From the IMG/VR virus record IMGVR_UViG_3300043466_002831, positions 57,364 through 121,363 of that record: a stretch of 64,000 nt of DNA. One strand, given 5' to 3'. This DNA is from a virus (lineage: Duplodnaviria > Heunggongvirae > Uroviricota > Caudoviricetes). The position numbers were made by a program, and so were the translations under genes. Positions 2,264 to 35,408 of the stretch are shown piece after piece (within the stretch, counting starts at the first letter, position 1; each line of letters starts with the position of its first letter). The notes beneath the pieces were generated by a model, which was not told the origin of the DNA, did not search any database, and saw nothing but the letters and a program-made list of their open reading frames with translations.

Positions 2264-2836
2264 ATGAAGATAATAATCACAGAAGAACAATTCAATCGAT
2301 TCAATAGAAGTAGCGGTGCGTTACAGAATGGGATTATTAAATATTTGAATCTTTTATTCTCAGAGGGTGAAAGGACTTTTAGTACTAAAAACAACAATCT
2401 TGGTAGTCTTTCAGAAAATTGGTGTATAGATGGTAAAAATCATTTCATGATAAATTATTATTTTGAAGATGGTAAGTTTAATGTTGGTAAGTTAATTGTG
2501 TCTATGACGATTGTTGACCAAATTAGAAATATATTCAGTATCAAAAAATCATATGCTCTCCATGTTATTGAAGAGTGGTATGAAGACGTAATGGTTCCAA
2601 AATTTGAGGAGTTGGTTGATGAAAAAGGATTAAGTATCGATGAAATTATGATTAGTACAAATATAGATAGTCCTTGTAAACCTAAATTTGTCAGACCTGA
2701 TGATTTAACGGATGATGAAATGATTGATTATATTGTGGCACACACTTTATTTAAAAGACAGGATGTTATACGACAACTTGAAGGTGGTAGAGACCTTGAT
2801 GTGATGTACGCAGATATTCTTTATAGAGACAAATAG
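2264..2836 (+). CDS. NTM family protein
   Basis: N-terminus MKIIITEEQFNRFN is nearly identical to the preceding gene's N-terminus. Confidence 0.7.
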   Translation: MKIIITEEQFNRFNRSSGALQNGIIKYLNLLFSEGERTFSTKNNNLGSLSENWCIDGKNHFMINYYFEDGKFNVGKLIVSMTIVDQIRNIFSIKKSYALHVIEEWYEDVMVPKFEELVDEKGLSIDEIMISTNIDSPCKPKFVRPDDLTDDEMIDYIVAHTLFKRQDVIRQLEGGRDLDVMYADILYRDK

Positions 2837-2839
2837 TAT

Positions 2840-3151
2840 ATGAAATACATTATAACAGAAGAACAATTACGAAATACGATTAAAAAATTCAATAGAGAAC
2901 ATATTGAACGAGATAAATTAAGTGTCATTATGGAAGAACTTGTTTTACGTTTTTTTGAAAACAAAATTCCTATTTGTGATGTAGTTGCCACAAAAACATC
3001 TGACTATATTGTTTTAGTATTAACTCCCAAATATATTGGTAATAGTATCGAAACTAGAATCGCCAAATATATTGAAGATTATATTGGTATTAGACCAATG
3101 GTTTTAGTTAATACGTCTCAAGATTGTATGGAAGAAGATACTATAGAATAA
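2840..3151 (+). CDS. NTM family protein (small)
   Basis: N-terminus MKYIITEEQLRNTIKKFN. Confidence 0.7.
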   Translation: MKYIITEEQLRNTIKKFNREHIERDKLSVIMEELVLRFFENKIPICDVVATKTSDYIVLVLTPKYIGNSIETRIAKYIEDYIGIRPMVLVNTSQDCMEEDTIE

Positions 3152-18116: not shown

Positions 18117-18135
18117 TATTAAAGTATTTATTAAT

Positions 18136-18639: not shown

Positions 18640-19077
18640 TTAATAAGGGTATGAAACAGTACGAGCATTCGTATTGAATACTCCATTAATAATATTCAAT
18701 AAAGGTTTACTCCAAATATTGATATCACCGAATAAACTTTCAAGTCTTTCATACATTTCCTCAGATAATACGATGAGGTCAAACTCCTCGTCACTTACGT
18801 CAGGACTATTTTGGCAAGGTTCAGGTAACTCATCTTTAAGTTCCTGAGGATAATCACCATTATCATCGTAATACTGTCTATTAACCAATTTAAATAGGTA
18901 GTCATCGTATTCCCTATCAGGTAGAACAAACCCTATGGCATAAGGGTCACAACATACACCCATACCACAATTAAAATCAGCCCAATTATAATAACAATTA
19001 TCAAATCCCTCAAAAGAAATATCAATGTAGTTGTGAATAACTTTAGTAAGTTTAGATTCTGAGATAGTTACTTTCAT
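18640..19077 (-). CDS. NTM-like family protein
   Basis: MKVTISESKLTKVIHNYIDISF on the minus strand. Confidence 0.55.
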   Translation of the reverse strand: MKVTISESKLTKVIHNYIDISFEGFDNCYYNWADFNCGMGVCCDPYAIGFVLPDREYDDYLFKLVNRQYYDDNGDYPQELKDELPEPCQNSPDVSDEEFDLIVLSEEMYERLESLFGDINIWSKPLLNIINGVFNTNARTVSYPY

Positions 19078-22901: not shown

Positions 22902-23007
22902 CTTATAGTAAAACTTATATATATGAAAAAGAATATCTGTTTATTGATTAAAAAAATTACTTTCGGGAAAGTTTGTCTCGGATGGTGTAAAATTTAATTA
23001 ACTTTAA

Positions 23008-23032
23008 CCCCTCCCACAAAGAGGGGTTTTTT
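23008..23032 (+). terminator. rho-independent terminator
   Basis: CCCCTC-CCACAAA-GAGGGG followed by TTTTTT. Confidence 0.7.
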
Positions 23033-23078
23033 ATTTCCTATAAACACGACCCCCTGTTTCGATTTAGTCCTATATACT

Positions 23079-23123
23079 GAAATAAAATTTTGGGAAAAAA
23101 ATGTCCCTTTTTTGACTATTTAT
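23079..23123 (+). repeat. 45-bp direct repeat copy 2
   Basis: GAAATAAAATTTTGGGAAAAAAATGTCCCTTTTTTGACTATTTAT, immediately upstream of the gene starting at 23129. Confidence 0.75.
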
Positions 23124-23128
23124 ATATT

Positions 23129-23428
23129 ATGGAAAAAGCGTTTGAGAAACTTCTTAGGAAATTGTTGTTAGAAAAGTATCCGATTTATTTGGATGTCCAT
23201 GTTTCCGAATCGGGAAAGTATACCCCTAATAAAAGAATTTGTTATGAGGTATTTCTTATTATTTTTGATGAATATTATGGAACATCTTGGAGTACAAAAC
23301 AAATTGATGAGGTTAAAGAATATGTTAATACTCTTGCAAAATATATGGATATAAATATTTGTGGGATTTATCATGAAGTTGTTAATGAGCAAGAATGGGA
23401 AGAAATGAAATTACCTATTAAAAATTAA
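23129..23428 (+). CDS. hypothetical protein
   Basis: ATG at 23129 (MEKAFEKLL...). The track start lies in the upstream 45-bp repeat. Terminator follows. Confidence 0.5.
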   Translation: MEKAFEKLLRKLLLEKYPIYLDVHVSESGKYTPNKRICYEVFLIIFDEYYGTSWSTKQIDEVKEYVNTLAKYMDINICGIYHEVVNEQEWEEMKLPIKN

Positions 23429-23430
23429 AC

Positions 23431-23455
23431 CCCCTCCCAACAGAGGGGTTTTTTT
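23431..23455 (+). terminator. rho-independent terminator
   Basis: CCCCTC-CCAACA-GAGGGG followed by TTTTTTT. Confidence 0.75.
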
Positions 23456-23505
23456 ATAATCCTCCAAATGTATGTTATAAAGGTGGGATTTGGAGGATTA
23501 TAACT
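23453..23505 (+). other. 13-bp perfect inverted repeat hairpin
   Basis: TAATCCTCCAAAT ...22 nt... ATTTGGAGGATTA, directly after a terminator. Confidence 0.6.
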
Positions 23506-23795
23506 TTTGTATTATATTTGTGGGATGGAAATATAGGGGTACATTTGGGGTTTCCAAAACACGACCCCCCTTTTGAAAAAGGTCCTAATATGTCAAAAAA
23601 AATTTTTGGGATTTTTTCTGTAAAATGGAACTCTACTAATTTGTAAAGTAAAACCCTTATAATATGTAAAGTGTGGGATTTTCCCCAACGGTAATATCCT
23701 GATAAATTAGGGGTGTATTATATTAAAGATTACCGAACGGGAATATCATTAACGGAGGGGTTTTTTATTTCAATTAATTTTATTATCTTTGTCTT

Positions 23796-24014
23796 ATGGA
23801 ACCTGATGAAAATGGATTAACCCATGTTACCTTACCTGAATTTATAAATACCATTTATGATATGAATGGGGAATTCAAATTAGATTGTTTGGATTTGGAT
23901 GGTATAGGTTTAGATACGAATATAGTATTGGTAAAATTAAAGGAGGTTGCACAAAGAAGTAAGATGGGGGGTAATAAAGGAATACATTTAACTTATGAAA
24001 AAGAAGGGGTATAG
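23796..24014 (+). CDS. hypothetical small protein
   Basis: 72-aa ORF. Confidence 0.4.
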   Translation: MEPDENGLTHVTLPEFINTIYDMNGEFKLDCLDLDGIGLDTNIVLVKLKEVAQRSKMGGNKGIHLTYEKEGV

Positions 24015-24160
24015 TTATTTGGACTATTATGGTCTTAGTCAGTATCGTGATGTAATTGAGGATGCCAAGGAAAAACTCAGGGAACAAATTAGACTTCAAA
24101 AGATTGAGGAGAGTAGAAGATTACTCGGAGGTAAAGAAGGTATACACTTAAAAGATAAAG

Positions 24161-24508
24161 ATGGATAAAGAAAAATTATTGGTTGGGGTTTTGTTTGGAG
24201 TTATTGCACAGACAATGACATTCTTTCAACTTCAAGGTCAATTAAAATATGAGTGGTTTAAGAATCATTATTGGTTGGTTGTTTTAATGGGGATTCCAAT
24301 CTCCATGTTATTCATGTTCTCTGTAAAGAATATGATTCTTGCTTATGGTGGGGAAATGTGGCCTTCAAGGTTAATTGGGTTTTCGATTGGGGCAATTGTC
24401 TTCACATATTTTAGTTGGTCGTTGTTTGGTGAACCCCTAACTTTGAAAACCATTATATGTTTGATGTTGGCTGTTTCCATATTGATGGTACAATTAATTA
24501 TGAGGTGA
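24161..24508 (+). CDS. small multi-pass membrane protein (SMR/DMT-like)
   Basis: Four hydrophobic helices in 115 aa. Confidence 0.5.
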   Translation: MDKEKLLVGVLFGVIAQTMTFFQLQGQLKYEWFKNHYWLVVLMGIPISMLFMFSVKNMILAYGGEMWPSRLIGFSIGAIVFTYFSWSLFGEPLTLKTIICLMLAVSILMVQLIMR

Positions 24509-24627
24509 TGGAAGAGGAAGATGACCAATGGTGTTATTATAGTGGCATGCCATCACCGATGGCTTATGCGAAATGTGATAAGTGTGGGGAGTTGTTGGAT
24601 GAATGTGAATGTGAAGAAAAAATATAA
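24508..24627 (+). CDS. tiny Cys-rich peptide (39 aa)
   Basis: TGATG overlap with the upstream gene; CDKCGELLDECEC. Terminator follows. Confidence 0.3.
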   Translation: MEEEDDQWCYYSGMPSPMAYAKCDKCGELLDECECEEKI

Positions 24628-24639
24628 AAATTAAAATAC

Positions 24640-24666
24640 CCCCATCTTTTTTAGGTGGGGTTTTTT
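24640..24666 (+). terminator. rho-independent terminator
   Basis: CCCCATCT-TTTTT-AGGTGGGG followed by TTTTTT. Confidence 0.7.
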
Positions 24667-24669
24667 GTT

Positions 24670-24677
24670 TATCTTTG
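24670..24677 (+). promoter_or_regulatory. -7 promoter box TATCTTTG, 4 nt upstream of ATG 24682
   Basis: TAnnTTTG-N4-ATG, immediately after a terminator. Confidence 0.5.
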
Positions 24678-24681
24678 ATGT

Positions 24682-25014
24682 ATGATAGAAGATATAAAAG
24701 TAATTCACCTCAAAAGTAATGCTCAACAACTTGAAACATGGATTGCCATGTTGAATGGGGAAATTGTGGGACACATCTATATGGAACGTGAAGAAAAGGA
24801 AAAGATTAAGTTTTTGGATGCTTGGGTTCATGAGGAACATAGATTGAAAGGTGTATTTAGAAAGTTGTGGGACACAAGATGGGAGTATGTTAAAAACCGT
24901 TATGCTGGTTATACTGTATATGCTTGGTGTAAACCAGGTTCATTGCCATTACTTTTGGAAAAAGGGTTTAGTGAAGGTGAAACATGTACGTATGTTGAAA
25001 AAATTGTAGAGTAA
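24682..25014 (+). CDS. GNAT-family N-acetyltransferase-like protein
   Basis: HRLKGVFRKL resembles GNAT motif A. TATCTTTG-N4-ATG upstream. Confidence 0.45.
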   Translation: MIEDIKVIHLKSNAQQLETWIAMLNGEIVGHIYMEREEKEKIKFLDAWVHEEHRLKGVFRKLWDTRWEYVKNRYAGYTVYAWCKPGSLPLLLEKGFSEGETCTYVEKIVE

Positions 25015-25018
25015 GATT

Positions 25019-25282
25019 ATGGAAGAAATTAAATATCAGGTGGGTGTTGACCTAACCATTAGAGATGGAAGATACTATTTTAAAATCTTGGCACAAGAAG
25101 GTCTTGATGTTGAAAATATACGTTCCGTCTTGGCTGGTGGATTATCTCTAACAATCCTATCAGAAAAAACTCCTGAGAAACAGGGTCAGGCTCTTCGTGG
25201 TGTTATTAAGTATTTGGAGAGTGAGTTGGTTAATATTGATTCGTTCACTGATATTGGTGGACCAGTTGTACCAAACGAATAG
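25019..25282 (+). CDS. hypothetical protein
   Basis: 87-aa ORF. Confidence 0.45.
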   Translation: MEEIKYQVGVDLTIRDGRYYFKILAQEGLDVENIRSVLAGGLSLTILSEKTPEKQGQALRGVIKYLESELVNIDSFTDIGGPVVPNE

Positions 25283-25299
25283 TCAGTATATTTATTGAC

Positions 25300-25617
25300 A
25301 TGAAGTACCTCATCACCGAATCCAGGTTGGAAAACTTAATATACAAGTATCTTGAATCGAAAAGTCTTTATTTGTTAAGCACGGTTAATTCACGTCATTT
25401 TTTTCCTTCCCGTAAATCTATTGATGATGGTGAGTACCCGATTATATCCTACGATAATAAGAACAAAGATTGTTTTGTTAGTTCCACTTTTGTTGAGGAT
25501 GTATGTTCTTTGTTTTCCATTGACCCCGAATATTCTTTGAAGGTTATATCTGAATGGGTTGGAAATAAATTGGATGTTGAAATTGAATCATATAATTCCG
25601 ACTTTGGTGCCGACTAA
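25300..25617 (+). CDS. NTM family protein (array member 1)
   Basis: MKYLITESRLENLIYKYLES. Confidence 0.7.
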   Translation: MKYLITESRLENLIYKYLESKSLYLLSTVNSRHFFPSRKSIDDGEYPIISYDNKNKDCFVSSTFVEDVCSLFSIDPEYSLKVISEWVGNKLDVEIESYNSDFGAD

Positions 25618-25632
25618 CAAATATTTATTGAC

Positions 25633-25872
25633 ATGAAATATATTATTACCGAATCACAACATCAAAACATTATTCATGATTATTTGGAAAAGTATATTGA
25701 TTCGGATTGCGTTAGAATTAAAAAAACCCCTAACTATATTAGTGTTGATGTTGAAAGTCCAAGTTATTTTGAAGAACAGGGATTTGATAAATCTGATGTT
25801 GTCAGAATAAAAAACTTTCTGAAAAAGAACTCTTTTCAGTATGCGTTTGGAGAATACATTAAAAAAATATGA
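25633..25872 (+). CDS. NTM family protein (array member 2)
   Basis: MKYIITESQHQNIIHDYLEKY. Confidence 0.7.
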   Translation: MKYIITESQHQNIIHDYLEKYIDSDCVRIKKTPNYISVDVESPSYFEEQGFDKSDVVRIKNFLKKNSFQYAFGEYIKKI

Positions 25873-26534
25873 AGTATATCATCACCGAATCTCAGCGTCA
25901 AACATTATTGATGGAAACCGTATCTCCTCCGATTCGTAGAAGGTTGAGTTTTGAGAATATGAAAGATGAGATGGATTCCATTATTGAACATACTTTGAAT
26001 CCCTGTGATTTTGATAATGCTGGAACTTTTATTGAGGATGCCTGTGATATGTTTGTTTATATCTATCTTGAAGATTTGCAAGCATCATCTAAAGATAAGG
26101 ATTCTCTTTATTATTATGCCGTTGACGTATTTGGAAAATATCTTGTGGAAGTTTATAATGAGAGATGTGGTGGCAAAGATGGTTTAAACGAATCGGTAGG
26201 TGATTTAAGTAGGAAGGCCAAAATTTTAAAAAGATATACAGAAGATATGTTATCTGAGAAACCATGGTTTAATGGTTTGGATATTACCATATCTAACTAT
26301 CAAACATCACATAAAGACGAAAATGGTCGTCGTTATTTAACCACAATCCCCATCTTTACATTTAAGATTAATACAAGTGGTATTCCTAAAAGTATTTCAT
26401 ATAATGATGTTATTAAACTTGAAAATGAGGTTTCGGACATTGTTGTTCCGTTATTTACTTCTTTGTTCCCTTATGAAGATGAAGATGACAACTTGGATGC
26501 GGTTTGGGATACAAAATTTGATTTTCACTTATGA
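25869..26534 (+). CDS. NTM family protein (array member 3)
   Basis: MKYIITESQRQTLLMETVS; ATGA overlap with the upstream gene. Confidence 0.7.
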   Translation: MKYIITESQRQTLLMETVSPPIRRRLSFENMKDEMDSIIEHTLNPCDFDNAGTFIEDACDMFVYIYLEDLQASSKDKDSLYYYAVDVFGKYLVEVYNERCGGKDGLNESVGDLSRKAKILKRYTEDMLSEKPWFNGLDITISNYQTSHKDENGRRYLTTIPIFTFKINTSGIPKSISYNDVIKLENEVSDIVVPLFTSLFPYEDEDDNLDAVWDTKFDFHL

Positions 26535-26860
26535 AATATATAATTACAGAATCAAAATTGGACATGCTCATGACAAACTACATGGACAATTTTCTTGCCA
26601 GTAAAAAAGTATCCGATGGAGGTGATGTCCTTATTATCTATGATAATTTGGGTGAAGATTATGAATATGAGGAAGAAGTTTCTATTGATTATACGTATGA
26701 TGATTCTGAGATGTCCATTAGAATGGACTTAATTAACATGTTTACGTCTATGTTTTCTCGTGATATAGAACAAGCTAAAGAATTCATTAAGAATTGGTTT
26801 GAAAATAAATTTAACCTTGAGGTCGGGTATGTGGATACTTTCAAATCACCTAATTTTTAG
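26531..26860 (+). CDS. NTM family protein (array member 4)
   Basis: MKYIITESKLDMLMTNYMDNF; ATGA overlap. Confidence 0.7.
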   Translation: MKYIITESKLDMLMTNYMDNFLASKKVSDGGDVLIIYDNLGEDYEYEEEVSIDYTYDDSEMSIRMDLINMFTSMFSRDIEQAKEFIKNWFENKFNLEVGYVDTFKSPNF

Positions 26861-26868
26861 TAAAAACT

Positions 26869-27288
26869 ATGAAATATATTATAACAGAATCTAAATTGAA
26901 TTCCGCCATCTATGAATTTATAGACCAAGCGTTTGCATCAAAAGATGGGAATACGGAAATTAATACATTACCCGCATTAGATGAAAACGGTGAGGAGATT
27001 AATAATGCTTATGATTTTGTGAATGATGACTATTATAGTGACTCTGGTTCTGATTATCTTTTTGCTTGGACTGGAGAAAAGTATTACGAATCACTAACCC
27101 CTAGTTATATAACAGGAAGTGAATTCGAAAGACTTGCATCACAATCACCCCTTGTTGAAATTTATGACAAAGATATCTTGAATAAACTTAATGGTTATTT
27201 CGGAGATGCGTGGAAGCCAGTATTTAAACAATGGTTTAAAGATAAAACGGGAATGGATTATAAAACAATATATGAAGTACCTAATTAG
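26869..27288 (+). CDS. NTM family protein (array member 5)
   Basis: MKYIITESKLNSAIYEFIDQAF; C-terminal GYFGDAWKPVFKQWFKDKTG. Confidence 0.7.
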   Translation: MKYIITESKLNSAIYEFIDQAFASKDGNTEINTLPALDENGEEINNAYDFVNDDYYSDSGSDYLFAWTGEKYYESLTPSYITGSEFERLASQSPLVEIYDKDILNKLNGYFGDAWKPVFKQWFKDKTGMDYKTIYEVPN

Positions 27289-27577
27289 TGAATCAAAAAT
27301 AGAATCTGTTATCCGAAAATATTTGGATGATAATTATTATCCTGACTATGGTTGGTTAGAACCTGAACAGTATAAAGAAGAATATGAAAAATGGGATGAA
27401 GTTTATTTTGACATTGATGACCATATTCGATATAAGTATGTTTCAGGAAAATTAACTGTTGGTGAATCCCCTGACCTTGATGGGTATTTTGGTGATGTGT
27501 GGAGACCTGTATTTCTTTCATGGTTTGAAGACCATACGGGATTAAAAGTTTATGAATATAAAGTACTTGACGAATGA
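27272..27577 (+). CDS. NTM family protein (array member 6)
   Basis: MKYLISESKIESVIRKYLDD from the internal ATG at 27272; C-terminal GYFGDVWRPVFLSWFEDHTG is paralogous to member 5. Confidence 0.65.
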   Translation: MKYLISESKIESVIRKYLDDNYYPDYGWLEPEQYKEEYEKWDEVYFDIDDHIRYKYVSGKLTVGESPDLDGYFGDVWRPVFLSWFEDHTGLKVYEYKVLDE

Positions 27578-27867
27578 AATATCTAATTAAAGAATCACAA
27601 ATTAAAAGGTTTATATGGGATTATTTTAATTCAGAGGATTATGATATTTCCGAAGATGATAATGATATTTTTCTTCTTGATGATTATGGTAATTTTGATT
27701 GGAATTATACTTTTGATAATAGACGATTGTTGGTTGCAAATGACATAATTGTTTCAGTTGAAAGTATGTTTAGTATTTCATATGACGATGCATTGGAATA
27801 TGCTGGTCAGTGGTTTGAAGAAAAGTATGGTTATATTGTTGAGGAAATTCTTAATTGGGATTTGTAA
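27574..27867 (+). CDS. NTM family protein (array member 7)
   Basis: MKYLIKESQIKRFIWDYFNSEDY; ATGA overlap. Confidence 0.7.
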   Translation: MKYLIKESQIKRFIWDYFNSEDYDISEDDNDIFLLDDYGNFDWNYTFDNRRLLVANDIIVSVESMFSISYDDALEYAGQWFEEKYGYIVEEILNWDL

Positions 27868-28869
27868 TTAAAAAAACTCTATTGTATTTTTAACGTCCAC
27901 ACAATATTCTTCGAACAAAAATCCATTTTCATTATATACCTCCATTTTTTTTATGTTGTTTGGATAACCGTATAAATTCCATATTCCGTAACCATCAAAA
28001 CTTTGGAATAGTTCCGTTTTTGTTTCATCATTAAATGTTATTATGATTTGTCTTGTTGTTGGTTCAGATTTTGTATTATAACTATAGATGAAAATTTCGT
28101 CAGGATTTTTTTGATTTAAATAAAATTTGGTATAACACCCTTTATATTTTTGGTCGTAATAAACTCTGGTGTGTTTTGAATTCCATAATGTGTCTGAAAA
28201 TTCTTGTACAAAATTATGGTGAACAATTATTTCATTTTGGTTAACTTTTTTTAAGTTCTCACACATAAATTCTTCCATAAGAAGAAAATTCCGATTGTTA
28301 TAGTTTGTTTGAAGAAAGTCAATATAGTCCTGTTCGCATGTTATGTTCCAGAAGTTATCTAAAAAATAATCTATTTCACACAAAAAATAATGTACGTTCA
28401 TAAAGGTTGGTTCGTTCATAAAGAAAACCCCTTTCTTTCCGTTTGATATACAGTCCTGATTTAATTCCTTGATTTTATTTGTTGTGTGATTTCCGAGAAT
28501 TGCGTCATATTCCATTTTATAAAAATGTGTATAACCTAAATCTTTTGCAATTTTCACAGAACGAAATAAACTAATTAATACCGATAGACCGTGTGGTTGA
28601 GTATGTGGAAATATATTTGATACTCTAAAAAATTCGTAAAGGTTATAATATGAAACATCTTGGTAATTGTCATACTTTTCTTTAAATAATTGATTCCTTT
28701 TATCGTAGAAAAAATAGTTAACCTTATCTTGAATTGTTTTTGATATGTTGGTATTTGACATTAATAATATGTCATCGCCAATATTTCTTGATGAATCTAT
28801 AAAATTACTTAAACGTGTTTCATCTGCCTCATCATTTATAAATGCATCTAGGATTAGTATTGTTTTCAT
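27868..28869 (-). CDS. hypothetical protein (possible nucleotide-sugar transferase-like fold; not established)
   Basis: 333-aa minus ORF, the only minus gene in a long plus block. N-terminus MKTILILDAFIND... Confidence 0.5.
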   Translation of the reverse strand: MKTILILDAFINDEADETRLSNFIDSSRNIGDDILLMSNTNISKTIQDKVNYFFYDKRNQLFKEKYDNYQDVSYYNLYEFFRVSNIFPHTQPHGLSVLISLFRSVKIAKDLGYTHFYKMEYDAILGNHTTNKIKELNQDCISNGKKGVFFMNEPTFMNVHYFLCEIDYFLDNFWNITCEQDYIDFLQTNYNNRNFLLMEEFMCENLKKVNQNEIIVHHNFVQEFSDTLWNSKHTRVYYDQKYKGCYTKFYLNQKNPDEIFIYSYNTKSEPTTRQIIITFNDETKTELFQSFDGYGIWNLYGYPNNIKKMEVYNENGFLFEEYCVDVKNTIEFF

Positions 28870-28944
28870 GATTAAATAATAGACAACCTTTTATATTTTT
28901 AAATGTTGAAGTATGAATTTATTCATCTTTTTAACCAGAACGCG

Positions 28945-29022
28945 CCGACGAAAACCGACTTCGTCGGATATTTTCCCTCATTTTTTCTCGTTTTTGGACC
29001 GCCGTTTCCGACCTTCGGTCGG
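28945..29022 (+). other. pair of GC-rich hairpins in a divergent intergenic region
   Basis: CCGACGA-AAACCGACT-TCGTCGG and CCGACC-TTCG-GGTCGG (UUCG-type loop) between minus gene 27868-28869 and plus gene 29097. Confidence 0.5.
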
Positions 29023-29096
29023 TTCGAAATCCTTTGTTATATGGTCATCTCGTTGGTGTCATCTAAACAAATGGTCGGGTCATTATATTTATTATT

Positions 29097-30020
29097 ATGA
29101 AGTACATTATCACTGAATCACAGTATAAGAATTTAATTGAATCTGATGACCGCTTAACCAAAATGGTTAATAGGTATTTGGACATGACATTCGGAAACAT
29201 GGTTCGAGTTGATACAAAGTTTGGTTCAGGTTATAAGTTTGACGGAGATGACCAATATCAACTTAATGTTTTCAAAAATGATTCAGGTAAATTGCAATTG
29301 GCAATTTCATCATCATTTATTAAACACCTTACCTCAATGTTTGATGTTTATAAATCTGAGGCGAGTGAACTTATTGCAGAATATTGTGAAGATGTTTTGG
29401 GTATGGAATTTGATTTTATACGAATTTGGCCAATTAAAATAACTGAATCAGATTTAACTCGAATAATTGAGAGAATCATACAAGAACAAGTTGCAACTGA
29501 ACCAATTAATTTTGATAAAGTATATAAATCCACTTATCCTAGTATGTTTAGACAAGTTTGTATGAAATATGCAAACGGAGATTATGACTTGGCATCTGAA
29601 TATTGCCAACTTGGATATTTGAGAGTTAACGATAAACTCCACACATTTAAGGGTGAAGGTAGTTTGGAGGGTTGGATTCGTCGTGTGATTACAACAACAA
29701 TCATCAATGAGTTCAGAGCTAAGAAAAGAAAAATCGACACAACAAGTGATTTTGATTTTGAAAGAAACGATGTTTCAGATGAACCTGAAGAAAAATATGA
29801 AGATATTGAGTTTATGGGTAAGTATACCGTGGCAGATATTAAAAACGCCATTGATTCTCTCCCTAAAGGTTATCAATTTGTTTTCTACCAATATTTCTAT
29901 AAAGACAAATCTCATAAGGAAATTGCTGACGCTTTGGGAATTGACGAAGGTACATCAAGGTCCCAATTGTCAAAAGCTAAAAAGAAGATTAAGGATTACT
30001 TGGAAAGTTTAAAAAGATAA
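29097..30020 (+). CDS. ECF-type sigma-70 family factor fused to an NTM-family N-terminal region
   Basis: N-terminus MKYIITESQYKNLIESDD. The C-terminal half has a region-2-like segment (LEGWIRRVITTTIINEFRAKKRK) and a region-4 helix-turn-helix (LPKGYQFVFYQYFYKDKSHKEIADALGIDEGTSRSQLSKAKKKIKDYL). Confidence 0.7.
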   Translation: MKYIITESQYKNLIESDDRLTKMVNRYLDMTFGNMVRVDTKFGSGYKFDGDDQYQLNVFKNDSGKLQLAISSSFIKHLTSMFDVYKSEASELIAEYCEDVLGMEFDFIRIWPIKITESDLTRIIERIIQEQVATEPINFDKVYKSTYPSMFRQVCMKYANGDYDLASEYCQLGYLRVNDKLHTFKGEGSLEGWIRRVITTTIINEFRAKKRKIDTTSDFDFERNDVSDEPEEKYEDIEFMGKYTVADIKNAIDSLPKGYQFVFYQYFYKDKSHKEIADALGIDEGTSRSQLSKAKKKIKDYLESLKR

Positions 30021-30030
30021 AATAATTTAA

Positions 30031-30055
30031 CCTATCTCACAAGGATGGGTTTTTT
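30031..30055 (+). terminator. rho-independent terminator
   Basis: CCTATC-TCACAAG-GATGGG followed by TTTTTT. Confidence 0.7.
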
Positions 30056-30084
30056 ATTTGATTTTATTTTCTTATGATTATTGT

Positions 30085-30498
30085 ATGAGTGATTTTAAAA
30101 TTTCTGACATTCCCCCTACAATTACAACAAATAATAGTGCCAGGTACGAAGTATTTGATAATTCCATGTTGGTAATGCCAAAAGTTCTTGATGTGTTAAT
30201 TAAAAAAACACATCCTGAGATTATTAGTGTGAGTATTAAAGATGTGGATTCTTCCTTAACGTATAATCCAATGGATTTTAGTGCTATTGAGAGATTTCGA
30301 CTACATATTTCGGTGTCATTTAAACAAGGTATTCAACCTAAAGGAGTGATGGAATATTATTCAGAATCAATCCAAGACTTGTTTAAATATACTTACCCCG
30401 AACATGACTTCGTTAAATTTAATGTGATTGAAATGAATATCCCAAACCCACCATCAAATCGAGAACTTTTTGGTAGATTGTTCTTACCTGAACAATAA
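30085..30498 (+). CDS. hypothetical protein
   Basis: In-frame ATG at 30085; the track start is TTG inside the terminator T-run. Confidence 0.45.
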   Translation: MSDFKISDIPPTITTNNSARYEVFDNSMLVMPKVLDVLIKKTHPEIISVSIKDVDSSLTYNPMDFSAIERFRLHISVSFKQGIQPKGVMEYYSESIQDLFKYTYPEHDFVKFNVIEMNIPNPPSNRELFGRLFLPEQ

Positions 30499-30518
30499 TT
30501 TTATTATATTTGTAAAAT

Positions 30519-30719
30519 ATGGAACCTGAATATTGGAGTTATTCTGTTGTTGATAATCGTACATACGATTATGTGAGTTATAACTACGTGGACATATCTG
30601 ACAAAGATTTATTCTACTATGAATACAATAACAGTTATTCCGATGATATGACATGGAAATATAAAAATACGGTAAAACGTATGAAGTTAACCAATAAAGA
30701 CGCTCACCCAATCGATTAA
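30519..30719 (+). CDS. hypothetical small protein
   Basis: TATATTTG-N6-ATG; ends KDAHPID. Confidence 0.4.
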   Translation: MEPEYWSYSVVDNRTYDYVSYNYVDISDKDLFYYEYNNSYSDDMTWKYKNTVKRMKLTNKDAHPID

Positions 30720-30721
30720 TT

Positions 30722-30886
30722 ATGAATGATAATCCATTATACGAAATGTTTTCCATGTCAGGAGGTAGTTTACATACTGAAGAATGGAATTGGGAGGAAC
30801 TCAAAAAAGCTCAAAAAATAATGGAGGTTGATATATTCCGAGCAGTAAATAATTTACACCCTAAAGATGTACACCCAATAGATTAA
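30722..30886 (+). CDS. hypothetical small protein (54 aa)
   Basis: Ends KDVHPID, so it shares a C-terminal motif with the preceding small ORF. Confidence 0.35.
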   Translation: MNDNPLYEMFSMSGGSLHTEEWNWEELKKAQKIMEVDIFRAVNNLHPKDVHPID

Positions 30887-30888
30887 AA

Positions 30889-31281
30889 ATGACAATACAA
30901 GAAGTAAGAGTAGGAAATTTGGTTCATCATCCAATCTTTGGTGATTATACGGTTATTCGTGCAACCGCATTTAATGGGTTTTATATTGGAACTCCTCAAG
31001 GTAATCCGATTCATGTTGATGACTTTACACCCGTAAAAATTACCGATGTATTGTTGGAACAAATGGGATTCAAGTATATGGAAGACCATGCACCTGGTAT
31101 TGGTAATTATGGTTGGTGGGAGAACGATGAGATATCATTAACACATTTTCACGAGGGTTTATATGGTATTGAGGGGATGAGCATAATGAAACCTATAAAA
31201 TATGTTCATCAATTACAAAATGCGTATTTTGTTATTACAGGGATGGAATTATCTACAAAAGATGTTGAAAGGATTTGGTAG
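30889..31281 (+). CDS. hypothetical protein
   Basis: 130-aa ORF. Confidence 0.5.
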   Translation: MTIQEVRVGNLVHHPIFGDYTVIRATAFNGFYIGTPQGNPIHVDDFTPVKITDVLLEQMGFKYMEDHAPGIGNYGWWENDEISLTHFHEGLYGIEGMSIMKPIKYVHQLQNAYFVITGMELSTKDVERIW

Positions 31282-31321
31282 ATTCAAAAAAACCTATTAT
31301 CTTTGTATCAAATTAGAAGAT

Positions 31322-31546
31322 ATGTTAAAGAAATTTATTTTTAGTGGTTGGGGATTATTCTGTCTCACATTTATCTACTTACACGTGTTATCGATATACT
31401 TTGAGTATGTTGTGAATCGAGAAGTAGCAAAAGAATTACAGCTTGTATTGACGTTGGGAGTTTTGGTCAGTACAGCTTTTTTATTAAAACTCATAGTTAA
31501 TTTCATTCAAAACAATTTAAAACAAAACGAAAAACAAAATGATTAG
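31322..31546 (+). CDS. small membrane protein
   Basis: Two hydrophobic helices (GWGLFCLTFIYLHVLSIYF; LVLTLGVLVSTAFLLKLIV), from the internal ATG. Confidence 0.45.
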   Translation: MLKKFIFSGWGLFCLTFIYLHVLSIYFEYVVNREVAKELQLVLTLGVLVSTAFLLKLIVNFIQNNLKQNEKQND

Positions 31547-32483
31547 TACTTTAATTTTTTTAGGATTTTTAATCGCCGCAGCTCTTGTTGCAATTAAAAC
31601 AAAAGACAAAATGTTCGTTACCACTCAAACACGATATGGTGACGAAAATGATTTTCAACCTATGTGGTTAGTAAAACCTATCGGGTTATTTTTAGCAGGT
31701 ATTATCCTTGCATCAGTTCAACCATACTCAATTGAGAAAATCGATGCGGGTCACAAAGGTTTGAAAATCAATTTGATTGGTGACCAACGTGGTGTGTCAA
31801 GTTACCAATACAAAACAGGTTGGGTAGTTTATAATACATGGACAGAACAAGTATTGGAGTTTCCAACATACCAACAACACATCGAGTATGAGAATCAGGG
31901 TGTAATCCTTAAAGGTGGATTCTCTGCAAGTATCAAACCAACATTTAACTATTCTTTGAAAGAAGATGCGATTGGTGAGATGTTCGTTAACTTACGTAAA
32001 GACATTCGTGAGGTAGAACAAAACTGGTTGAAAAACGCAATCATCGGAGCGGTTAATGACGTGGCGAATACATGGGAGGTAGATAGTATCTTTAATCACC
32101 GTCAACAATTCGAATCTTCAATTGTTATTGAGTGTAATAAACGACTATCAAAATGGTTTAATGTGAGTCAGTTGAGAACTAACATCGTTCCACCTGAATC
32201 TCTACAAGAAGCAATTATCGCTAAAACCAAAGCAATTCAACAAGCGGAAGCTGCCGAACAACAAGCACTTACAGCATTTGCTGACGGTAAACGTAAGGTT
32301 GCTGTGGCACGAGCTGACTCCGCAGAAACAATCATCAAGGCGAACGCATCGGCAATGTCCATGAAGATTAAACAACGAGAACTTACTCCACTATACGTTG
32401 AGTTCTTAAAGGCTCAGGCTTGGGATGGAAAACTCCCGACAACTGTGGCGGGAAGTTCAGGAACATTTTTGAATATAAAATAA
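31539..32483 (+). CDS. SPFH/band-7 (prohibitin/stomatin-like) domain protein with N-terminal membrane anchor
   Basis: N-terminal TM segment ISTLIFLGFLIAAALVAI. C-terminal Ala/Gln-rich helix AIQQAEAAEQQALTAF...KVAVARADSAE typical of the SPFH family. Confidence 0.6.
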   Translation: MISTLIFLGFLIAAALVAIKTKDKMFVTTQTRYGDENDFQPMWLVKPIGLFLAGIILASVQPYSIEKIDAGHKGLKINLIGDQRGVSSYQYKTGWVVYNTWTEQVLEFPTYQQHIEYENQGVILKGGFSASIKPTFNYSLKEDAIGEMFVNLRKDIREVEQNWLKNAIIGAVNDVANTWEVDSIFNHRQQFESSIVIECNKRLSKWFNVSQLRTNIVPPESLQEAIIAKTKAIQQAEAAEQQALTAFADGKRKVAVARADSAETIIKANASAMSMKIKQRELTPLYVEFLKAQAWDGKLPTTVAGSSGTFLNIK

Positions 32484-32490
32484 CCTTAAA

Positions 32491-32516
32491 CCCCACTCAC
32501 AATGTGGGGTTTTTTA
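32491..32516 (+). terminator. rho-independent terminator
   Basis: CCCCAC-TCACAAT-GTGGGG followed by TTTTTT. Confidence 0.8.
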
Positions 32517-32549
32517 ATTTCAATATATTTATAATAAACGAAATTAAAA

Positions 32550-33296
32550 ATGAAAAAAATTATAAGATTAACTGAAGCCGATTTAACACGCATCGTTAAA
32601 CGAGTGATTAGTGAACAAAATACTGGCAAATTTGACCCTCAAGTATCGAAATTTACTAAAGATATTGCGGCTAAATTGATTGGTAAACAAATTTGTGCCG
32701 AAGATGGTGATGACTCATCAAATTACGAATGTTATTTTTTAGATACCCTTAAAGAAGAACCCATATATATGTCTTATGATACTAACGCTAAAAGTACGAA
32801 GGATATTAAATTTATTAATATGAGTTTCAGGGGAAGATTTTATCCAAGTAAAGCTGGAAGTAATATCATGAAAATGTCATTAGATATTGGTATTAATTTA
32901 GAAAATGGAGTTCCAGTATCGGTAAGTAGAACATTTGTTTTCCCTGAGAAAGGTGAGTTGATTAGATTAAATGATGAAGAAGTAACAAAAAAAACAATAC
33001 CGTTAATTAAAAATATTCGTGTTGCTGAACCACCAAAAGTAGCAAATCCTTGTTTTAAAGGATATAAATGGGGTAAAGTAAACTATATGAGAATCCCTAA
33101 ACATTTTGAGGGTCAGGTATTTACTAAAGAGAATAGTGACGGGTCTGAAACATACTTATTCAAGACAGGGAGTGATTGGTCAAGAGGTAGTGGTGTCATC
33201 GATAAGGGTGAAGTTAAAAATAGTATACAACAAATTAATTGGGTTTGTTCATCGGGTAAATTAACAATTACTAATAAAATTCCCACACGAGATTAA
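32550..33296 (+). CDS. NTM family protein (RLTE variant)
   Basis: MKKIIRLTEADLTRIVKRVISEQ. Confidence 0.65.
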   Translation: MKKIIRLTEADLTRIVKRVISEQNTGKFDPQVSKFTKDIAAKLIGKQICAEDGDDSSNYECYFLDTLKEEPIYMSYDTNAKSTKDIKFINMSFRGRFYPSKAGSNIMKMSLDIGINLENGVPVSVSRTFVFPEKGELIRLNDEEVTKKTIPLIKNIRVAEPPKVANPCFKGYKWGKVNYMRIPKHFEGQVFTKENSDGSETYLFKTGSDWSRGSGVIDKGEVKNSIQQINWVCSSGKLTITNKIPTRD

Positions 33297-33317
33297 TAAT
33301 AACTTATAAAATTTTAA

Positions 33318-33344
33318 ACCCCATCTTTAACAGGTGGGGTTTTT
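33318..33344 (+). terminator. rho-independent terminator
   Basis: CCCCATC-TTTAACA-GGTGGGG followed by TTTTTT. Confidence 0.75.
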
Positions 33345-33533
33345 TGTTTCATATTATATTTGTATATTTGTAAAAACTTTGTATTATGGAAATCGGAAAA
33401 ATGACAATTAGTGAAGCATATCCACACTTAAAACCAATCGCTCTTGCTTATGGATTGAAACTAAATCGAGCCAAAGATTTTAGATTTGCGAGAATTATTT
33501 TGGCGAACTTGTATAACCGAGAATTATCGTAAA

Positions 33534-33809: not shown

Positions 33810-33810
33810 T

Positions 33811-34059: not shown

Positions 34060-34067
34060 GATAAAAA

Positions 34068-34092
34068 CCCATCTTTTTTTAGGTGGGTTTTT
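34068..34092 (+). terminator. rho-independent terminator
   Basis: CCCATC-TTTTTTTA-GGTGGG followed by TTTTTT. Confidence 0.65.
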
Positions 34093-34349: not shown

Positions 34350-34370
34350 GTTTGTTAAGTATTTATTAAT

Positions 34371-35408
34371 ATGAAGTATATTATCACAGAATCACAATAT
34401 AAAATATTGATTGGGGAGGATGACCATGTGGAACCATCAAAAACTGCAATAAAAAATATCTGTGATAGTAAAAAGTTTTGTAGTGCTCAAGGTAAAATTA
34501 CTTTTGGACAACTAAAAGAATTGGTTAAAGCAGCTTCCAAAACTCGTTTGTATAAACATATGGGTGAAGGTGGATTTAAAGCAACAATTAGATTAATTCC
34601 ATTCTTTTTACCGCAATTGATGATTCCTGGTATTGTTGCAGGAGCTGCAAGAGCAATCAATAAGATATTAAAACCAGGTCTTACTGAGACCGAAAGTTAT
34701 AAAACATTTTGGGGTAAATCCATATTAAGAGCGTTTAAAATTGCTGAAGGCGATATTGACCTTGAAGACCCATTATCCAAAATATTTTTTATTTCAGATG
34801 GTTTGATGACCATGATGGATGATAAATATAAAGTTAAATTCGCTCGTTATGTTGCAGATTTGGCGGATGAGAAACCCGATGATGAGGAGGTTCCTGAATA
34901 TTTTGTTGAGAATGAATTAAGAAAATGGATTAATGATAAATTTTTATTGGACCCACCAATTCCATCAAAAACATTTAATAGAAAGTTATTACCAAAAGAT
35001 ATTGATAATACTGACGAAACACTAACTGAACAAAAGTTGAGTAAAAAAGAACTATTCCAAGACATGGTAAATGAAAAGTTGGAATATATTAAAAAACGTT
35101 GTGTCGATGCTGATGATGTAACTTTCCCAAATGACATTTCATTTAGTACTTGTGACACTGTTGATTTGGTTGATAGTATAACCGTTGCCGAACTTAATGT
35201 TATGTCAAGTGCAAGAACTGATATGTCAGGAGAATTATATAATGTAACACCTAGTATTTACATTAAACTAATTATTAATTTTTCATCTGCAAAAAAAATA
35301 TTTGATTTTGATGATTTGGTTTATGATATAAAACATATGTTAAGAAAATCAACAGGCGGATTAATGGTTGTATTTGATTATGATATTAACAACACATTTA
35401 ACGATTAA
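34371..35408 (+). CDS. NTM family protein
   Basis: MKYIITESQYKILIGEDD; the AAGTATTTATTAATATG cassette lies upstream. Confidence 0.7.
   Translation: MKYIITESQYKILIGEDDHVEPSKTAIKNICDSKKFCSAQGKITFGQLKELVKAASKTRLYKHMGEGGFKATIRLIPFFLPQLMIPGIVAGAARAINKILKPGLTETESYKTFWGKSILRAFKIAEGDIDLEDPLSKIFFISDGLMTMMDDKYKVKFARYVADLADEKPDDEEVPEYFVENELRKWINDKFLLDPPIPSKTFNRKLLPKDIDNTDETLTEQKLSKKELFQDMVNEKLEYIKKRCVDADDVTFPNDISFSTCDTVDLVDSITVAELNVMSSARTDMSGELYNVTPSIYIKLIINFSSAKKIFDFDDLVYDIKHMLRKSTGGLMVVFDYDINNTFND

What the first reader, a model, noticed from the sequence alone, without database searches (positions are those of the whole stretch)
25300..27867. Tandem array of seven NTM-family genes with ATGA/overlap coupling
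Seven consecutive small genes (79-221 aa) all start with MKY[IL]I[TSK]ES. Several junctions are stop/start overlaps (ATGA at 25869, 26531 and 27574; a 17-nt overlap at 27272). Members 5 and 6 also share a C-terminal block GYFGD[AV]W[KR]PVF..WF[KE]D.TG. This looks like a locally amplifying, diversifying cassette array, possibly translationally coupled.
Basis: seen in the sequence. Interest (0 to 1): 0.6.

Follow-up and report, generated by a model that had tools for sequence, protein, structure and literature searches.

The report
Phage gene array sharing N-terminal tag
Seven neighbouring small genes of an uncultured large phage are old, diverged copies of an undescribed phage-only protein family. 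All start with the same eight amino acids, which behave like a tag that only matters at the very start of a protein; its job is still unknown.

Summary
Seven + strand genes (25300-27867) start with MKY[IL]I[TSK]ES, against 0.0003 such matches expected by chance. Independent metagenome assemblies reproduce the array, so it is not a misassembly.

The motif is not confined to the array. It also heads an ECF sigma factor (29097-30020), a 345-aa protein (34371-35408) and, in variant form, several other genes.

Five of the seven genes, and probably the N-terminal half of a sixth, share a ~100-aa domain. It has a helical frame with a variable acidic beta insert (AlphaFold pLDDT 93.5) and no match in PDB, Pfam or PHROGs. 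The family has about 1,100 clusters at 50% identity, all from viral or metagenomic contigs.

The paralogues are old (20-35% identity). Orthologues are under purifying selection (dN/dS 0.03-0.40). Closely related phages differ in which members they carry. The array is therefore a cassette cluster with turnover, not a recently amplifying one.

The octapeptide is unstructured in the models and is usually lost when the domain sits inside a fusion protein, so it depends on N-terminal position. My best reading is a set of accessory host-directed proteins carrying a protein-level N-terminal tag. A T4-like capsid-targeting signal is the leading concrete version of that tag (about 0.2-0.25), and a translation-start effect is the main rival.

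The parts
24640..24660 (+). Terminator-like hairpin followed by a T run; likely upstream boundary of the transcription unit that contains the array
   Evidence: CCCCATCTTTTTTAGGTGGGG + TTTTTTGTTT. No comparable + strand site lies between here and 27867.
24682..25282 (+). Two context genes ahead of the array: a GNAT-like 110-aa protein (24682-25014) and an 87-aa protein (25019-25282)
   Evidence: Acetyltransf_1, weak. In L109 and L111 the 87-aa gene lies after the array instead of before it.
25288..25299 (+). Start-proximal element ATATTTATTGAC directly before the m1 ATG
   Evidence: GTATTTATWNNNATG with up to 1 mismatch gives 15 matches against 2.98 expected.
25300..25617 (+). m1, 105 aa, full family domain, pI 4.6
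   Evidence: (50.7 bits with the profile lacking the leader; m1 is a row of that profile, so this score is partly circular).
25621..25632 (+). Second copy of the ATATTTATTGAC element, before the m2 ATG
25633..25872 (+). m2, 79 aa; shares the leader and first helix only (profile positions 1-40)
   Evidence: 99% identical orthologue in L109, dN/dS 0.03.
25869..26534 (+). m3, 221 aa; leader, an all-helical N-terminal half that is weakly related to the family, and a C-terminal alpha/beta domain; ATGA overlap with m2
26531..26860 (+). m4, 109 aa, full family domain, pI 4.1; ATGA overlap with m3
26869..27288 (+). m5, 139 aa, family domain with a long insert and the GYFGDAW block
27272..27577 (+). 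m6, 101 aa, family domain with the GYFGDVW block; 17-nt overlap with m5
27574..27867 (+). m7, 97 aa, full family domain, pI 4.05; ATGA overlap with m6. The array ends against a convergent 333-aa gene (27868-28869, - strand).
   Evidence: (AF2 pLDDT 93.5).
29097..30020 (+). m8, outside the reported interval: family domain (aa 1-112), an internal ITESDLTRIIERIIQEQ helix, then an ECF sigma factor (aa 140-302). Monocistronic, between terminator-like sites at 28945-28967 and 30029-30051.
   Evidence: TIGR02937, 95 bits against a cutoff of 42.9.
34371..35408 (+). m9, outside the reported interval: the same leader on a 345-aa protein with no family body. It is a fusion of two modules that are separate genes in L111.
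2264..3151 (+). Two further relatives: 2264-2836 (MKIIITEEQF; family body scores 36 bits without the leader) and 2840-3151 (MKYIITEEQL; leader only)
18640..19077 (-). Further relative, MKVTISESKL, 145 aa (30 bits with the full profile)

Best explanation
What the array is (largely shown). It is one co-transcribed cluster of old, diverged paralogues of an undescribed, phage-only protein family. It sits in an accessory, non-structural region of a large uncultured phage whose host is probably a member of the Bacteroidota.

What the proteins look like (shown). They are small and very acidic. They share a conserved frame: helix 1, then two C-terminal helices carrying the F..(W/Y)F..K.G motif. A beta insert of variable length and sequence lies between helix 1 and those helices.

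What they do (inferred). I think they form a panel of soluble binder or inhibitor proteins aimed at different host targets, for host take-over or counter-defence. Individual cassettes are swapped in and out between related phages while each one stays under purifying selection.

The N-terminal octapeptide. M-K-Y-(I/L)-I-x-E-S is not part of the fold and is kept only when it is the true N-terminus (shown). I infer that it is a protein-level N-terminal tag read by a common partner (about 0.45). The leading concrete version is a targeting and processing signal like the T4 capsid targeting sequence. That would mean I-x-E followed by cleavage before Ser8, loading the proteins, including the sigma factor, into the prohead for co-injection (about 0.2-0.25).
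For: The genes are real and expressed as a unit:
- The same seven genes occur in five or more independent assemblies.
- dN/dS is 0.03-0.40 against L109 orthologues.
- The genes overlap or abut, with no internal terminator.

The family:
- A profile lacking the leader still scores m1, m4, m5, m6, m7 and the N-terminus of m8 at 32-117 bits. These six are rows of the profile, so those scores are partly circular; leaderless pairwise BLAST links m1/m4/m7/m8 and m5/m6 independently.
- The profile also finds 2264-2836 and two weaker relatives that are not in it.
- There are 1,093 clusters at E<=1e-3 among 1.84 billion representatives.
- It is absent from GTDB genomes, from deposited phages and from Pfam, PHROGs and NCBIfam.

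Variable insert and acidity:
- The 110-sequence alignment needs 198 columns for proteins of ~100-140 aa, and conservation sits at the two ends.
- pI is 4.05-4.6 for six of the seven.

Turnover and setting:
- Gene content differs in L109 and L111, and related contigs carry 1-12 copies.
- Among 126 non-redundant neighbouring ORFs, the 25 most-matched of 50 hit Pfam families include no capsid, portal, terminase or tail family.

The tag:
- Residues 1-6 are coil with low confidence in m7, and residues 1-9 have pLDDT below 50 in m3.
- In 148 representatives the counts are M1 147, K2 130, Y3 116, I5 133, E7 130 and S8 105.
- In older two-domain fusions the internal copy has lost the octapeptide, and the profile match starts at position 9-11.
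- The same leader heads bodies that the family profile does not recognise: m9 and 2840-3151 in the window, and by inspection several distinct body types in related contigs.
- A variant leader heads a lysozyme-LysM protein.
- Synonymous codons vary, and Ser8 uses both TCN and AGT.
- The T4 precedent for a 10-residue N-terminal tag on otherwise unrelated, fast-changing proteins is described in PMC9026906 and PMC3012670.
Against: - No function is demonstrated for any member, and there is no match to any known anti-defence or host take-over protein.
- The proteins are acidic, whereas T4 internal proteins are basic.
- No T4 gp21-type protease was seen in the 84 kb I could read. The only protease found is a ClpP-family protein about 9 kb beyond the window.
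- The arrays do not lie near recognisable head genes.
- Codon use in the leader departs from that of the gene bodies: AAA 89 vs 77%, TAC 55 vs 21%, ATC 34 vs 11%. In addition, K-Y/K-I at the start matches a published motif that raises translation yield (PMC6920384). Part of the conservation may therefore be translational.
- hhalign links the N-terminal half of m3 to the family, so some 'unrelated bodies' may be extreme divergence of one superfamily.
- The fusion sample that shows N-terminus dependence is small (about 10 proteins).
Confidence: 0.45

Rival explanations
1. The octapeptide has no role after translation. MKY(I/L)I is a translation-start and early-elongation optimum, and T-E-S-x-L merely caps helix 1. 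Together with the TATTTATT element directly before the ATG, it forms a portable expression module. That module gives any cassette placed behind it efficient synthesis in a host that does not use Shine-Dalgarno pairing.
For: - K|N-Y|I dipeptides at codons 3-5 gave the highest yields in a 250,000-member reporter library (PMC6920384), and residues 2-5 here are K-Y-I/L-I.
- Leader codons are biased relative to the gene bodies.
- The motif depends on N-terminal position.
- Looser MK/MR + hydrophobic + TE(S/E)(Q/D)L starts head about 20 of 109 genes in the window. That is an 80-fold N-terminal enrichment, though for a pattern I defined after seeing the data.
- Residue 6 is T, S or N in 82% of representatives, which are good helix N-cap residues.
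- The helix starts at residue 7.
Against: - The published effect concerns codons 3-5 only. It does not explain the near-invariant E7 and S8, which internal domain copies do without.
- The codon bias runs towards TAC and ATC, not the U-ending codons of the published motif.
- Recognisable enzymes in the same window (thymidylate synthase, RNA ligase, phosphoesterases, glycosyltransferase) do not carry the motif.
- To my knowledge, no other case is known in which translation constraints hold eight residues fixed across about 1,000 diverged clusters.
Confidence: 0.3
2. The leader is simply the conserved first structural element of one very divergent superfamily. All leader-bearing proteins descend from one ancestor, and the N-terminus is conserved for folding or stability.
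For: - Helix 7-19 packs in a high-confidence model.
- hhalign recovers a family-type C-terminal helix in m3.
- The T-E-S part survives in some internal copies: INESRL, LISESK.
Against: - Residues 1-6 are coil with low confidence in both models.
- Several internal domain copies fold into profile-matching domains without residues 1-8.
- K2, E7 and S8 are polar, yet they are among the most conserved columns.
Confidence: 0.15
3. The shared 5' ends are DNA-level recombination boxes that mediate cassette shuffling, like the promoter/stem-loop cassettes of T4-type phages. The protein motif would then be a by-product.
For: - Gene content changes exactly at gene boundaries between close relatives.
- A conserved element lies directly upstream of some members.
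- The 5' 53 nt form the only DNA repeat in the array.
Against: - That repeat is only 60-74% identical, with differences concentrated at synonymous sites. This is too diverged for homologous recombination and indicates selection on the peptide.
- Members joined by ATGA overlaps lack the upstream element.
Confidence: 0.05
4. Artefact: a collapsed or chimeric repeat assembly, or non-coding ORFs.
For: None found.
Against: - The array is identical in independent JGI and Logan assemblies.
- There are no long DNA repeats.
- dN/dS is below 1.
- There are hundreds of homologues.
- The structure prediction is confident.
Confidence: 0.01

Closest known systems
T4 internal proteins (IPI, IPII, IPIII, Alt) and their capsid targeting sequence, MKTYQEFIAE, removed by prohead protease gp21 at (L/I)-x-E
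   Same: - A short N-terminal peptide is shared by small proteins that are otherwise dissimilar.
- The genes lie in loci whose content differs between close relatives.
- The peptide begins M-K, contains an aromatic residue and ends in I-x-E followed by a small residue.
- T4 cargo includes a counter-defence protein and an enzyme that reprograms host RNA polymerase. Here one carrier of the tag is a sigma factor.
(PMC9026906 and PMC3012670; sequence comparison is mine.)
   Different: - There is no sequence homology to T4 proteins (no PHROG hit).
- The proteins here are acidic, not basic.
- Many more genes carry the tag.
- No gp21-type protease was seen in the 84 kb read.
- Packaging and cleavage are untested.
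Paralogous head and ejection protein families of giant phages (phiKZ, 201phi2-1, SPN3US), whose propeptides are cut after Glu
   Same: - Large phages with expanded families of paralogous genes.
- N-terminal propeptides removed at x-E sites.
- Proteins delivered into the host.
(Abstracts, plus my own knowledge.)
   Different: - Those proteins were identified by virion mass spectrometry and sit in or near head modules.
- Here there is no proteomic evidence, and the neighbours are accessory or nucleotide-metabolism genes.
Short translational ramp motif K|N-Y|I (Verma et al. 2019, PMC6920384)
   Same: Lys followed by Tyr or Ile at the very start of the coding sequence; the effect depends on position.
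   Different: - The published positions are codons 3-5, whereas here they are codons 2-5.
- The published work was in E. coli, yeast and human cells, not Bacteroidota.
- It does not account for conserved E7 and S8.
ECF (group 4) sigma-70 family factors (applies to m8 only)
   Same: Regions 2 and 4 are present: TIGR02937 at 95 bits; Pfam Sigma70_r2 and Sigma70_r4_2.
   Different: It carries a 112-aa N-terminal domain of the array's family plus a linker helix. To my knowledge, such an N-terminal extension is unusual for ECF sigma factors. Stand-alone homologues of that domain in other phages are not next to a sigma gene.

Membership tests
T4-type capsid targeting sequence / internal protein system | A short (10-19 aa) N-terminal peptide shared by proteins whose mature parts are unrelated | tested here: inconclusive
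   The octapeptide heads the family domain. It also heads m2, m9, 2840-3151 and, by inspection, several other body types in related contigs. However, hhalign links the N-terminal half of m3 to the family, so some of these bodies may be distant relatives rather than unrelated.
T4-type capsid targeting sequence / internal protein system | (L/I)-x-E cleavage motif at the end of the peptide | tested here: met
   I5-x6-E7 followed by S8. Counts in 148 representatives: I5 133, E7 130, S8 105. This shows compatibility at the sequence level only.
T4-type capsid targeting sequence / internal protein system | A gp21-type (Glu-specific) prohead protease encoded by the same genome | tested here: inconclusive
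   None was found in the window or in 10 kb on either side. A ClpP-family protease lies at L103:861-1541. The rest of the genome, which is at least 137 kb, could not be read.
T4-type capsid targeting sequence / internal protein system | Proteins present in virions with the peptide removed | not testable with these tools
   This needs virion or viral-fraction proteomics.
T4-type capsid targeting sequence / internal protein system | Sequence homology to T4 IPI, IPII, IPIII or Alt | tested here: not met
   No PHROG, Pfam or NCBIfam match for any of the seven genes. No tblastn match in 50,697 phage records.
New family defined here (helical frame + variable beta insert, ~100 aa) | Significant match to the family profile after the leader is removed | tested here: met
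   Met for m1, m4, m5, m6, m7 and m8 (aa 28-112) at 32-117 bits, though these six are rows of the profile, so the scores are partly circular; leaderless pairwise BLAST supports m1/m4/m7/m8 and m5/m6 independently. Also met for 2264-2836 (36 bits), which is not in the profile. Not met for m2, m3, m9 and 2840-3151. The N-terminal half of m3 is linked only by hhalign.
ECF sigma-70 factor (m8) | Regions 2 and 4 above curated thresholds | tested here: met
   TIGR02937 at 95 bits against a cutoff of 42.9. Sigma70_r2 at 31.4 against 24. Sigma70_r4_2 at 48.5 against 25.7.
Short translational ramp K|N-Y|I | K or N followed by Y or I at codons 3-5, with raised protein yield | tested here: inconclusive
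   K2-Y3-(I/L)4-I5 is present but shifted by one codon. Codon bias is present but not towards the published U-ending codons. Yield cannot be tested here.
Known RNA element or DNA repeat array | An Rfam match, or long near-identical DNA repeats | tested here: not met
   No Rfam match in 23000-36000. The only repeat is the 53-nt 5' end at 60-74% identity.

The most novel reading that the evidence does not exclude
MKY(I/L)IxES may be a portable N-terminal address tag used by a clade of large uncultured phages that probably infect Bacteroidota. It would be a functional analogue of the T4 capsid targeting sequence that arose independently. The tag would load a changeable repertoire of small effectors, and even an ECF sigma factor, into the prohead. 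It would be cut after Glu7, and the cargo would be injected with the DNA, so that host transcription and defences are hit before any phage gene is expressed.
Probability: 0.2. Interest if true: 0.8.

Novelty: new member of a known kind. Interest (0 to 1): 0.45.

Why it matters
The family is large: about 1,100 clusters at 50% identity, with up to 12 copies per 20 kb. It is confined to big uncultured phages, has a confidently predicted fold with no solved relative, and is not in Pfam, PHROGs or NCBIfam. Defining it removes a block of 'hypothetical' genes from these genomes.

The more interesting point is the eight-residue tag, which depends on being at the N-terminus. If it is an address signal, it would be only the second well-defined phage packaging tag after the T4 one. 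It would also be a ready-made handle for delivering proteins into Bacteroidota.

If it is instead a translation element, it would be a natural example of a fixed 'ramp' peptide in a lineage that does not use Shine-Dalgarno pairing.

Either answer can be obtained with a simple reporter experiment or a proteomics run.

Tried and rejected
- A homology search with three concatenated leader variants, meant to list every leader-bearing protein and its Pfam domains, returned only 4 weak hits.
- tblastn of m7, of the family consensus and of the 316-aa 'leader 2' protein against 50,697 deposited phage genomes gave no match. The transglycosylase matched only through its SLT domain.
- A GTDB genome scan found 18 pattern matches but no relative.
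- Literature searches for the peptide strings gave zero papers. A search for a comparable described family found nothing relevant.
- A conserved functional link between the family domain and sigma factors is rejected. Stand-alone homologues of the m8 N-terminal domain in L083 and L090 are followed by a lysozyme-LysM gene, not a sigma gene.
- Recent local tandem duplication is rejected.
- Assigning functions to other leader-bearing bodies failed. HExxH-containing and repeat-like proteins gave no Pfam hit above threshold, so I do not call them peptidases or LRR proteins.
- I could not walk the genome to reach the head module. Look-ups are restricted to window-encoded proteins, so only 10 kb on each side could be read.
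Full report

Yes. The ORF listing gives seven consecutive + strand ORFs:
- m1: 25300-25617, 105 aa
- m2: 25633-25872, 79 aa
- m3: 25869-26534, 221 aa
- m4: 26531-26860, 109 aa
- m5: 26869-27288, 139 aa
- m6: 27272-27577, 101 aa
- m7: 27574-27867, 97 aa

All begin with MKY[IL]I[TSK]ES. A six-frame scan finds nine such starts in the window, all on the + strand. The expectation is 0.0003 from residue frequencies, and 200 local shuffles gave a mean of 0.01.

The three ATGA overlaps and the 17-nt overlap are as reported. The GYFGD[AV]W block of m5 and m6 is present.

The array is not an assembly artefact:
- The same genes, in the same order and with the same lengths, occur in independent JGI and Logan assemblies.
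- The only DNA repeat in the region is the first 53 nt of each gene, at 60-74% identity.

**2. The motif reaches beyond the reported interval.**

Strict copies also head two genes outside it:
- 29097-30020 (m8, 307 aa).
- 34371-35408 (m9, 345 aa).

Variants head four more genes:
- 2840-3151 (MKYIITEEQL)
- 2264-2836 (MKIIITEEQF)
- 955-2250 (MRIIITEEQF)
- 18640-19077 on the - strand (MKVTISESKL)

m8 is a fusion. Its first 112 residues are a domain of the array's family. An internal helix ITESDLTRIIERIIQEQ follows, then an ECF sigma factor (TIGR02937 at 95 bits against a cutoff of 42.9; Pfam regions 2 and 4).

**3. What the proteins are.**

Similarity beyond the leader. With the first 16 residues removed, BLAST still links m1, m4, m7 and m8, and links m5 with m6. 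A profile built from 110 homologues with the leader cut off gives these scores:

| Protein | Bits (leaderless profile) |
|---|---|
| m5 | 117 |
| m4 | 105 |
| m7 | 80 |
| m8, residues 28-112 | 55 |
| m1 | 51 |
| 2264-2836 | 36 |
| m6 | 32 |

m1 and m4-m8 are themselves rows of that profile, so their scores are partly circular. The hit to 2264-2836 is independent.

m2, m3, m9 and 2840-3151 match through the leader only. However, profile-profile comparison links residues 85-107 of m3 to the family's C-terminal helix (95% probability). So five of the seven genes are clear members, m3 is probably a divergent one with an added C-terminal domain, and m2 shares only about 40 residues.

Structure:
- AlphaFold2 on m7 gives pLDDT 93.5. 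Residues 1-6 are coil. The elements are helix 7-19, four strands, helices 56-66 and 70-85, and a last strand.
- The viral structure library returns only uncharacterised proteins of 'uncultured Caudovirales phage'.
- m3 is modelled less well (pLDDT 77.8). It has an all-helical N-terminal half and a generic alpha/beta C-terminal domain, and residues 1-9 score below 50.

Conservation and charge. Conservation lies at the two ends of the domain. The middle varies in length and sequence: 198 alignment columns are needed for proteins of ~100-140 aa. Six of the seven proteins have pI 4.05-4.6.

**4. Distribution.**

- The family profile finds 1,093 clusters (50% identity) at E<=1e-3, and 229 at E<=1e-10, among 1.84 billion representatives.
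- Members lie on IMG/VR contigs of 4-326 kb, many of them above 100 kb, with 1 to 12 copies per 20 kb and tandem runs of up to nine.
- None was found in one genome per GTDB species or in 50,697 deposited phage records.
- No Pfam, PHROG or NCBIfam model matches.
- The peptide string appears in no paper of the library.
- A Bacteroidota host is inferred from phage genes that carry type IX secretion C-terminal domains (CHU_C, Por_Secre_tail).

**5. Evolution of the array.**

- Paralogues are 20-35% identical.
- In 31 arrays, neighbours are not more alike than non-neighbours (p=0.28).
- Against the related contig L109, orthologues are 78-99% identical with dN/dS of 0.03-0.40.
- Content differs between relatives. 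L109 has m1 m2 m3 m4, then an m5-like gene (42% identity), m6, a new member and another m5-like gene. L111, from a 196-kb contig, starts at m3 and lacks m4. The 87-aa gene that precedes the array in the window follows it in both.
- This is cassette turnover among old paralogues, not recent amplification.

**6. Expression signals.**

- Terminator-like hairpins are enriched in 23000-36000 (22 against 5.4 expected). One lies at 24640-24660. None with a T run lies inside the array. m8 and m9 each sit behind their own hairpin.
- A conserved element, (G/A)TATTTAT(T/A)NNN, lies directly before the ATG of m1, m2, m8, m9 and about ten other genes (15 matches against 2.98 expected).
- m3 to m7 lack that element and are joined by overlaps or an 8-nt gap.
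- One polycistronic unit with coupled cistrons is therefore plausible, but it is not shown.

**7. The octapeptide.**

Shown:
- It is the most conserved part of the family. In 148 representatives the counts are M1 147, K2 130, Y3 116, I5 133, E7 130 and S8 105.
- It is unstructured in both models.
- In older two-domain fusion proteins the N-terminal copy keeps it. The internal copy has usually lost it, and the profile match starts at position 9-11.
- It heads bodies that the family profile does not recognise: m9 and 2840-3151 in the window, and by inspection several distinct body types in related contigs. A variant heads a lysozyme-LysM protein.
- Synonymous codons differ between copies. Even so, codon use in the leader is biased relative to the gene bodies.

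Inferred: the peptide has a function that depends on being at the N-terminus, and it is not needed for the fold.

**8. Mechanism.**

My best reading has two parts. The array is a panel of small acidic host-directed binders built on a common frame. The tag is a protein-level signal read by a shared partner (about 0.45).

The one established phage precedent for such a tag is the T4 capsid targeting sequence. That is a 10-residue N-terminal peptide, cut by the prohead protease, on otherwise dissimilar proteins that vary between related phages (PMC9026906, PMC3012670). The present peptide resembles it in outline: M-K, an aromatic residue, then I-x-E followed by a small residue. I give this concrete version about 0.2-0.25, for four reasons:
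- The proteins are acidic.
- No Glu-specific prohead protease was seen in the 84 kb available. Only a ClpP-family protease was found.
- The neighbours of the arrays are accessory genes rather than head genes.
- Nothing shows that the proteins are packaged.

The main rival (0.3) is that MKYII is a translation-start optimum and TESxL a helix cap. It is supported by the published K|N-Y|I effect (PMC6920384) and by the codon bias. It does not explain the near-invariant E7 and S8.

A purely structural role (0.15), DNA-level recombination boxes (0.05) and artefact (0.01) are less likely.

**9. Comparison and novelty.**

The array is not a member of any described family. It is a new family of a familiar kind, namely lineage-specific paralogue arrays in large phages. 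The added feature is a position-dependent N-terminal tag whose nearest functional analogue is the T4 capsid targeting sequence. Membership of that system fails on homology and is untested on its defining biochemical features.

**10. Limits.**

- No experimental data exist for these phages.
- I could read only the window plus 10 kb on each side.
- The fusion-protein sample is small.
- The looser 'leader' pattern, seen on about 20 of 109 genes, was defined after looking at the data.

Noticed in passing
window 10794-10808, 18124-18138, 34359-34373, 25288-25302, 25621-25635, 29085-29099, 43544-43558, 45720-45734, 51977-51991(-) and others: A conserved element, (G/A)TATTTAT(T/A)NNN, lies directly before the ATG of about 15 genes (15 matches against 2.98 expected). 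It often follows a GGTGGGG...TTTTTT terminator hairpin. If it is a -10-type or Bacteroidota -7-type promoter box, the transcripts would be leaderless or nearly so.
   Followed up: partly
window 32550-33296, 35804-36754, 36756-37193, 39720-39971, 42388-43065; internal copy in 29097-30020 (aa 115-131): A second N-terminal leader family, M(K/A)(K/R)hh(R/K)L(T/N/R)E(S/A/Q)(D/E)h.R(I/L)(I/V).K(V/I)ISEQ, heads five otherwise dissimilar proteins. One of them is an SLT lytic transglycosylase. The same sequence forms the linker before the sigma domain of m8. In L111 a 366-aa protein with this leader occupies the position of m8.
   Followed up: partly
window 18136-18447, 13538-14038(-), 10806-11120, 7210-8421, 54533-55156: A third recurring N-terminus (MNLKESIRRIIREE, MNLREDIERIQEVMG, MRLDENILRIKEVMG) occurs on proteins of 103-403 aa. 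Recurrent N-terminal helices seem to be a general habit of this genome.
   Followed up: no
window 29097-30020: The phage encodes an ECF-type sigma factor that carries a 112-aa N-terminal domain of the array's family. To my knowledge, such an N-terminal extension is unusual for ECF sigma factors. Stand-alone homologues of that domain occur in other phages (L083:5525-5911, L090:9178-9564).
   Followed up: partly
window 34371-35408 compared with L111:8988-10850 and L111:10930-11283: m9 is a fusion. Its C-terminal third (from about LFQDMVNEKLEYIKK) is a separate 117-aa gene in the 196-kb relative. Leader-bearing 123-137-aa homologues of that part also exist (L089:6545, L096:1360). The junction in m9 keeps an LTEQKL motif.
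   Followed up: partly
window 8533-10752; L106:1-1859; window 40352-41866, 56855-57292: Phage genes carry type IX secretion C-terminal domains (CHU_C, Por_Secre_tail with Cohesin), and several have signal or lipoprotein-like N-termini. This points to a Bacteroidota host and to phage proteins exported by the host's secretion system.
   Followed up: no
L103:861-1541 (about 9 kb beyond the right end of the window): A ClpP-family protease gene (226 aa) lies next to an HNH gene and is followed by convergent 215-, 420- and 377-aa genes of unknown function. The 420-aa protein starts MKFNLTEGEV. It could be the prohead protease, but the layout is not the usual portal-protease-capsid order.
   Followed up: no
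window 23000-36000: Rho-independent terminator-like hairpins are strongly enriched (22 against 5.4 expected). Many share the stem AAACCCCA...TGGGGTTT, so the region is cut into many short transcription units.
   Followed up: no
proteins P0001, P0010, P0022 (public metagenome proteins): These are in-frame fusions of an m3-like N-terminal domain with m4. The m4 leader is progressively eroded across them (GKYLITESKL, then EVTQSKL, then GIKTTL). They are natural snapshots of how the leader decays once it is internal.
   Followed up: yes
window 60291-61388(-), 62783-63838(-), 16732-18087, 49899-51113: Other recognisable genes: a thymidylate synthase about 100 aa longer than the Pfam model, a T4 Rnl1-type RNA ligase, a GIY-YIG protein, and a protein with an Hjc-like resolvase domain.
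   Followed up: no
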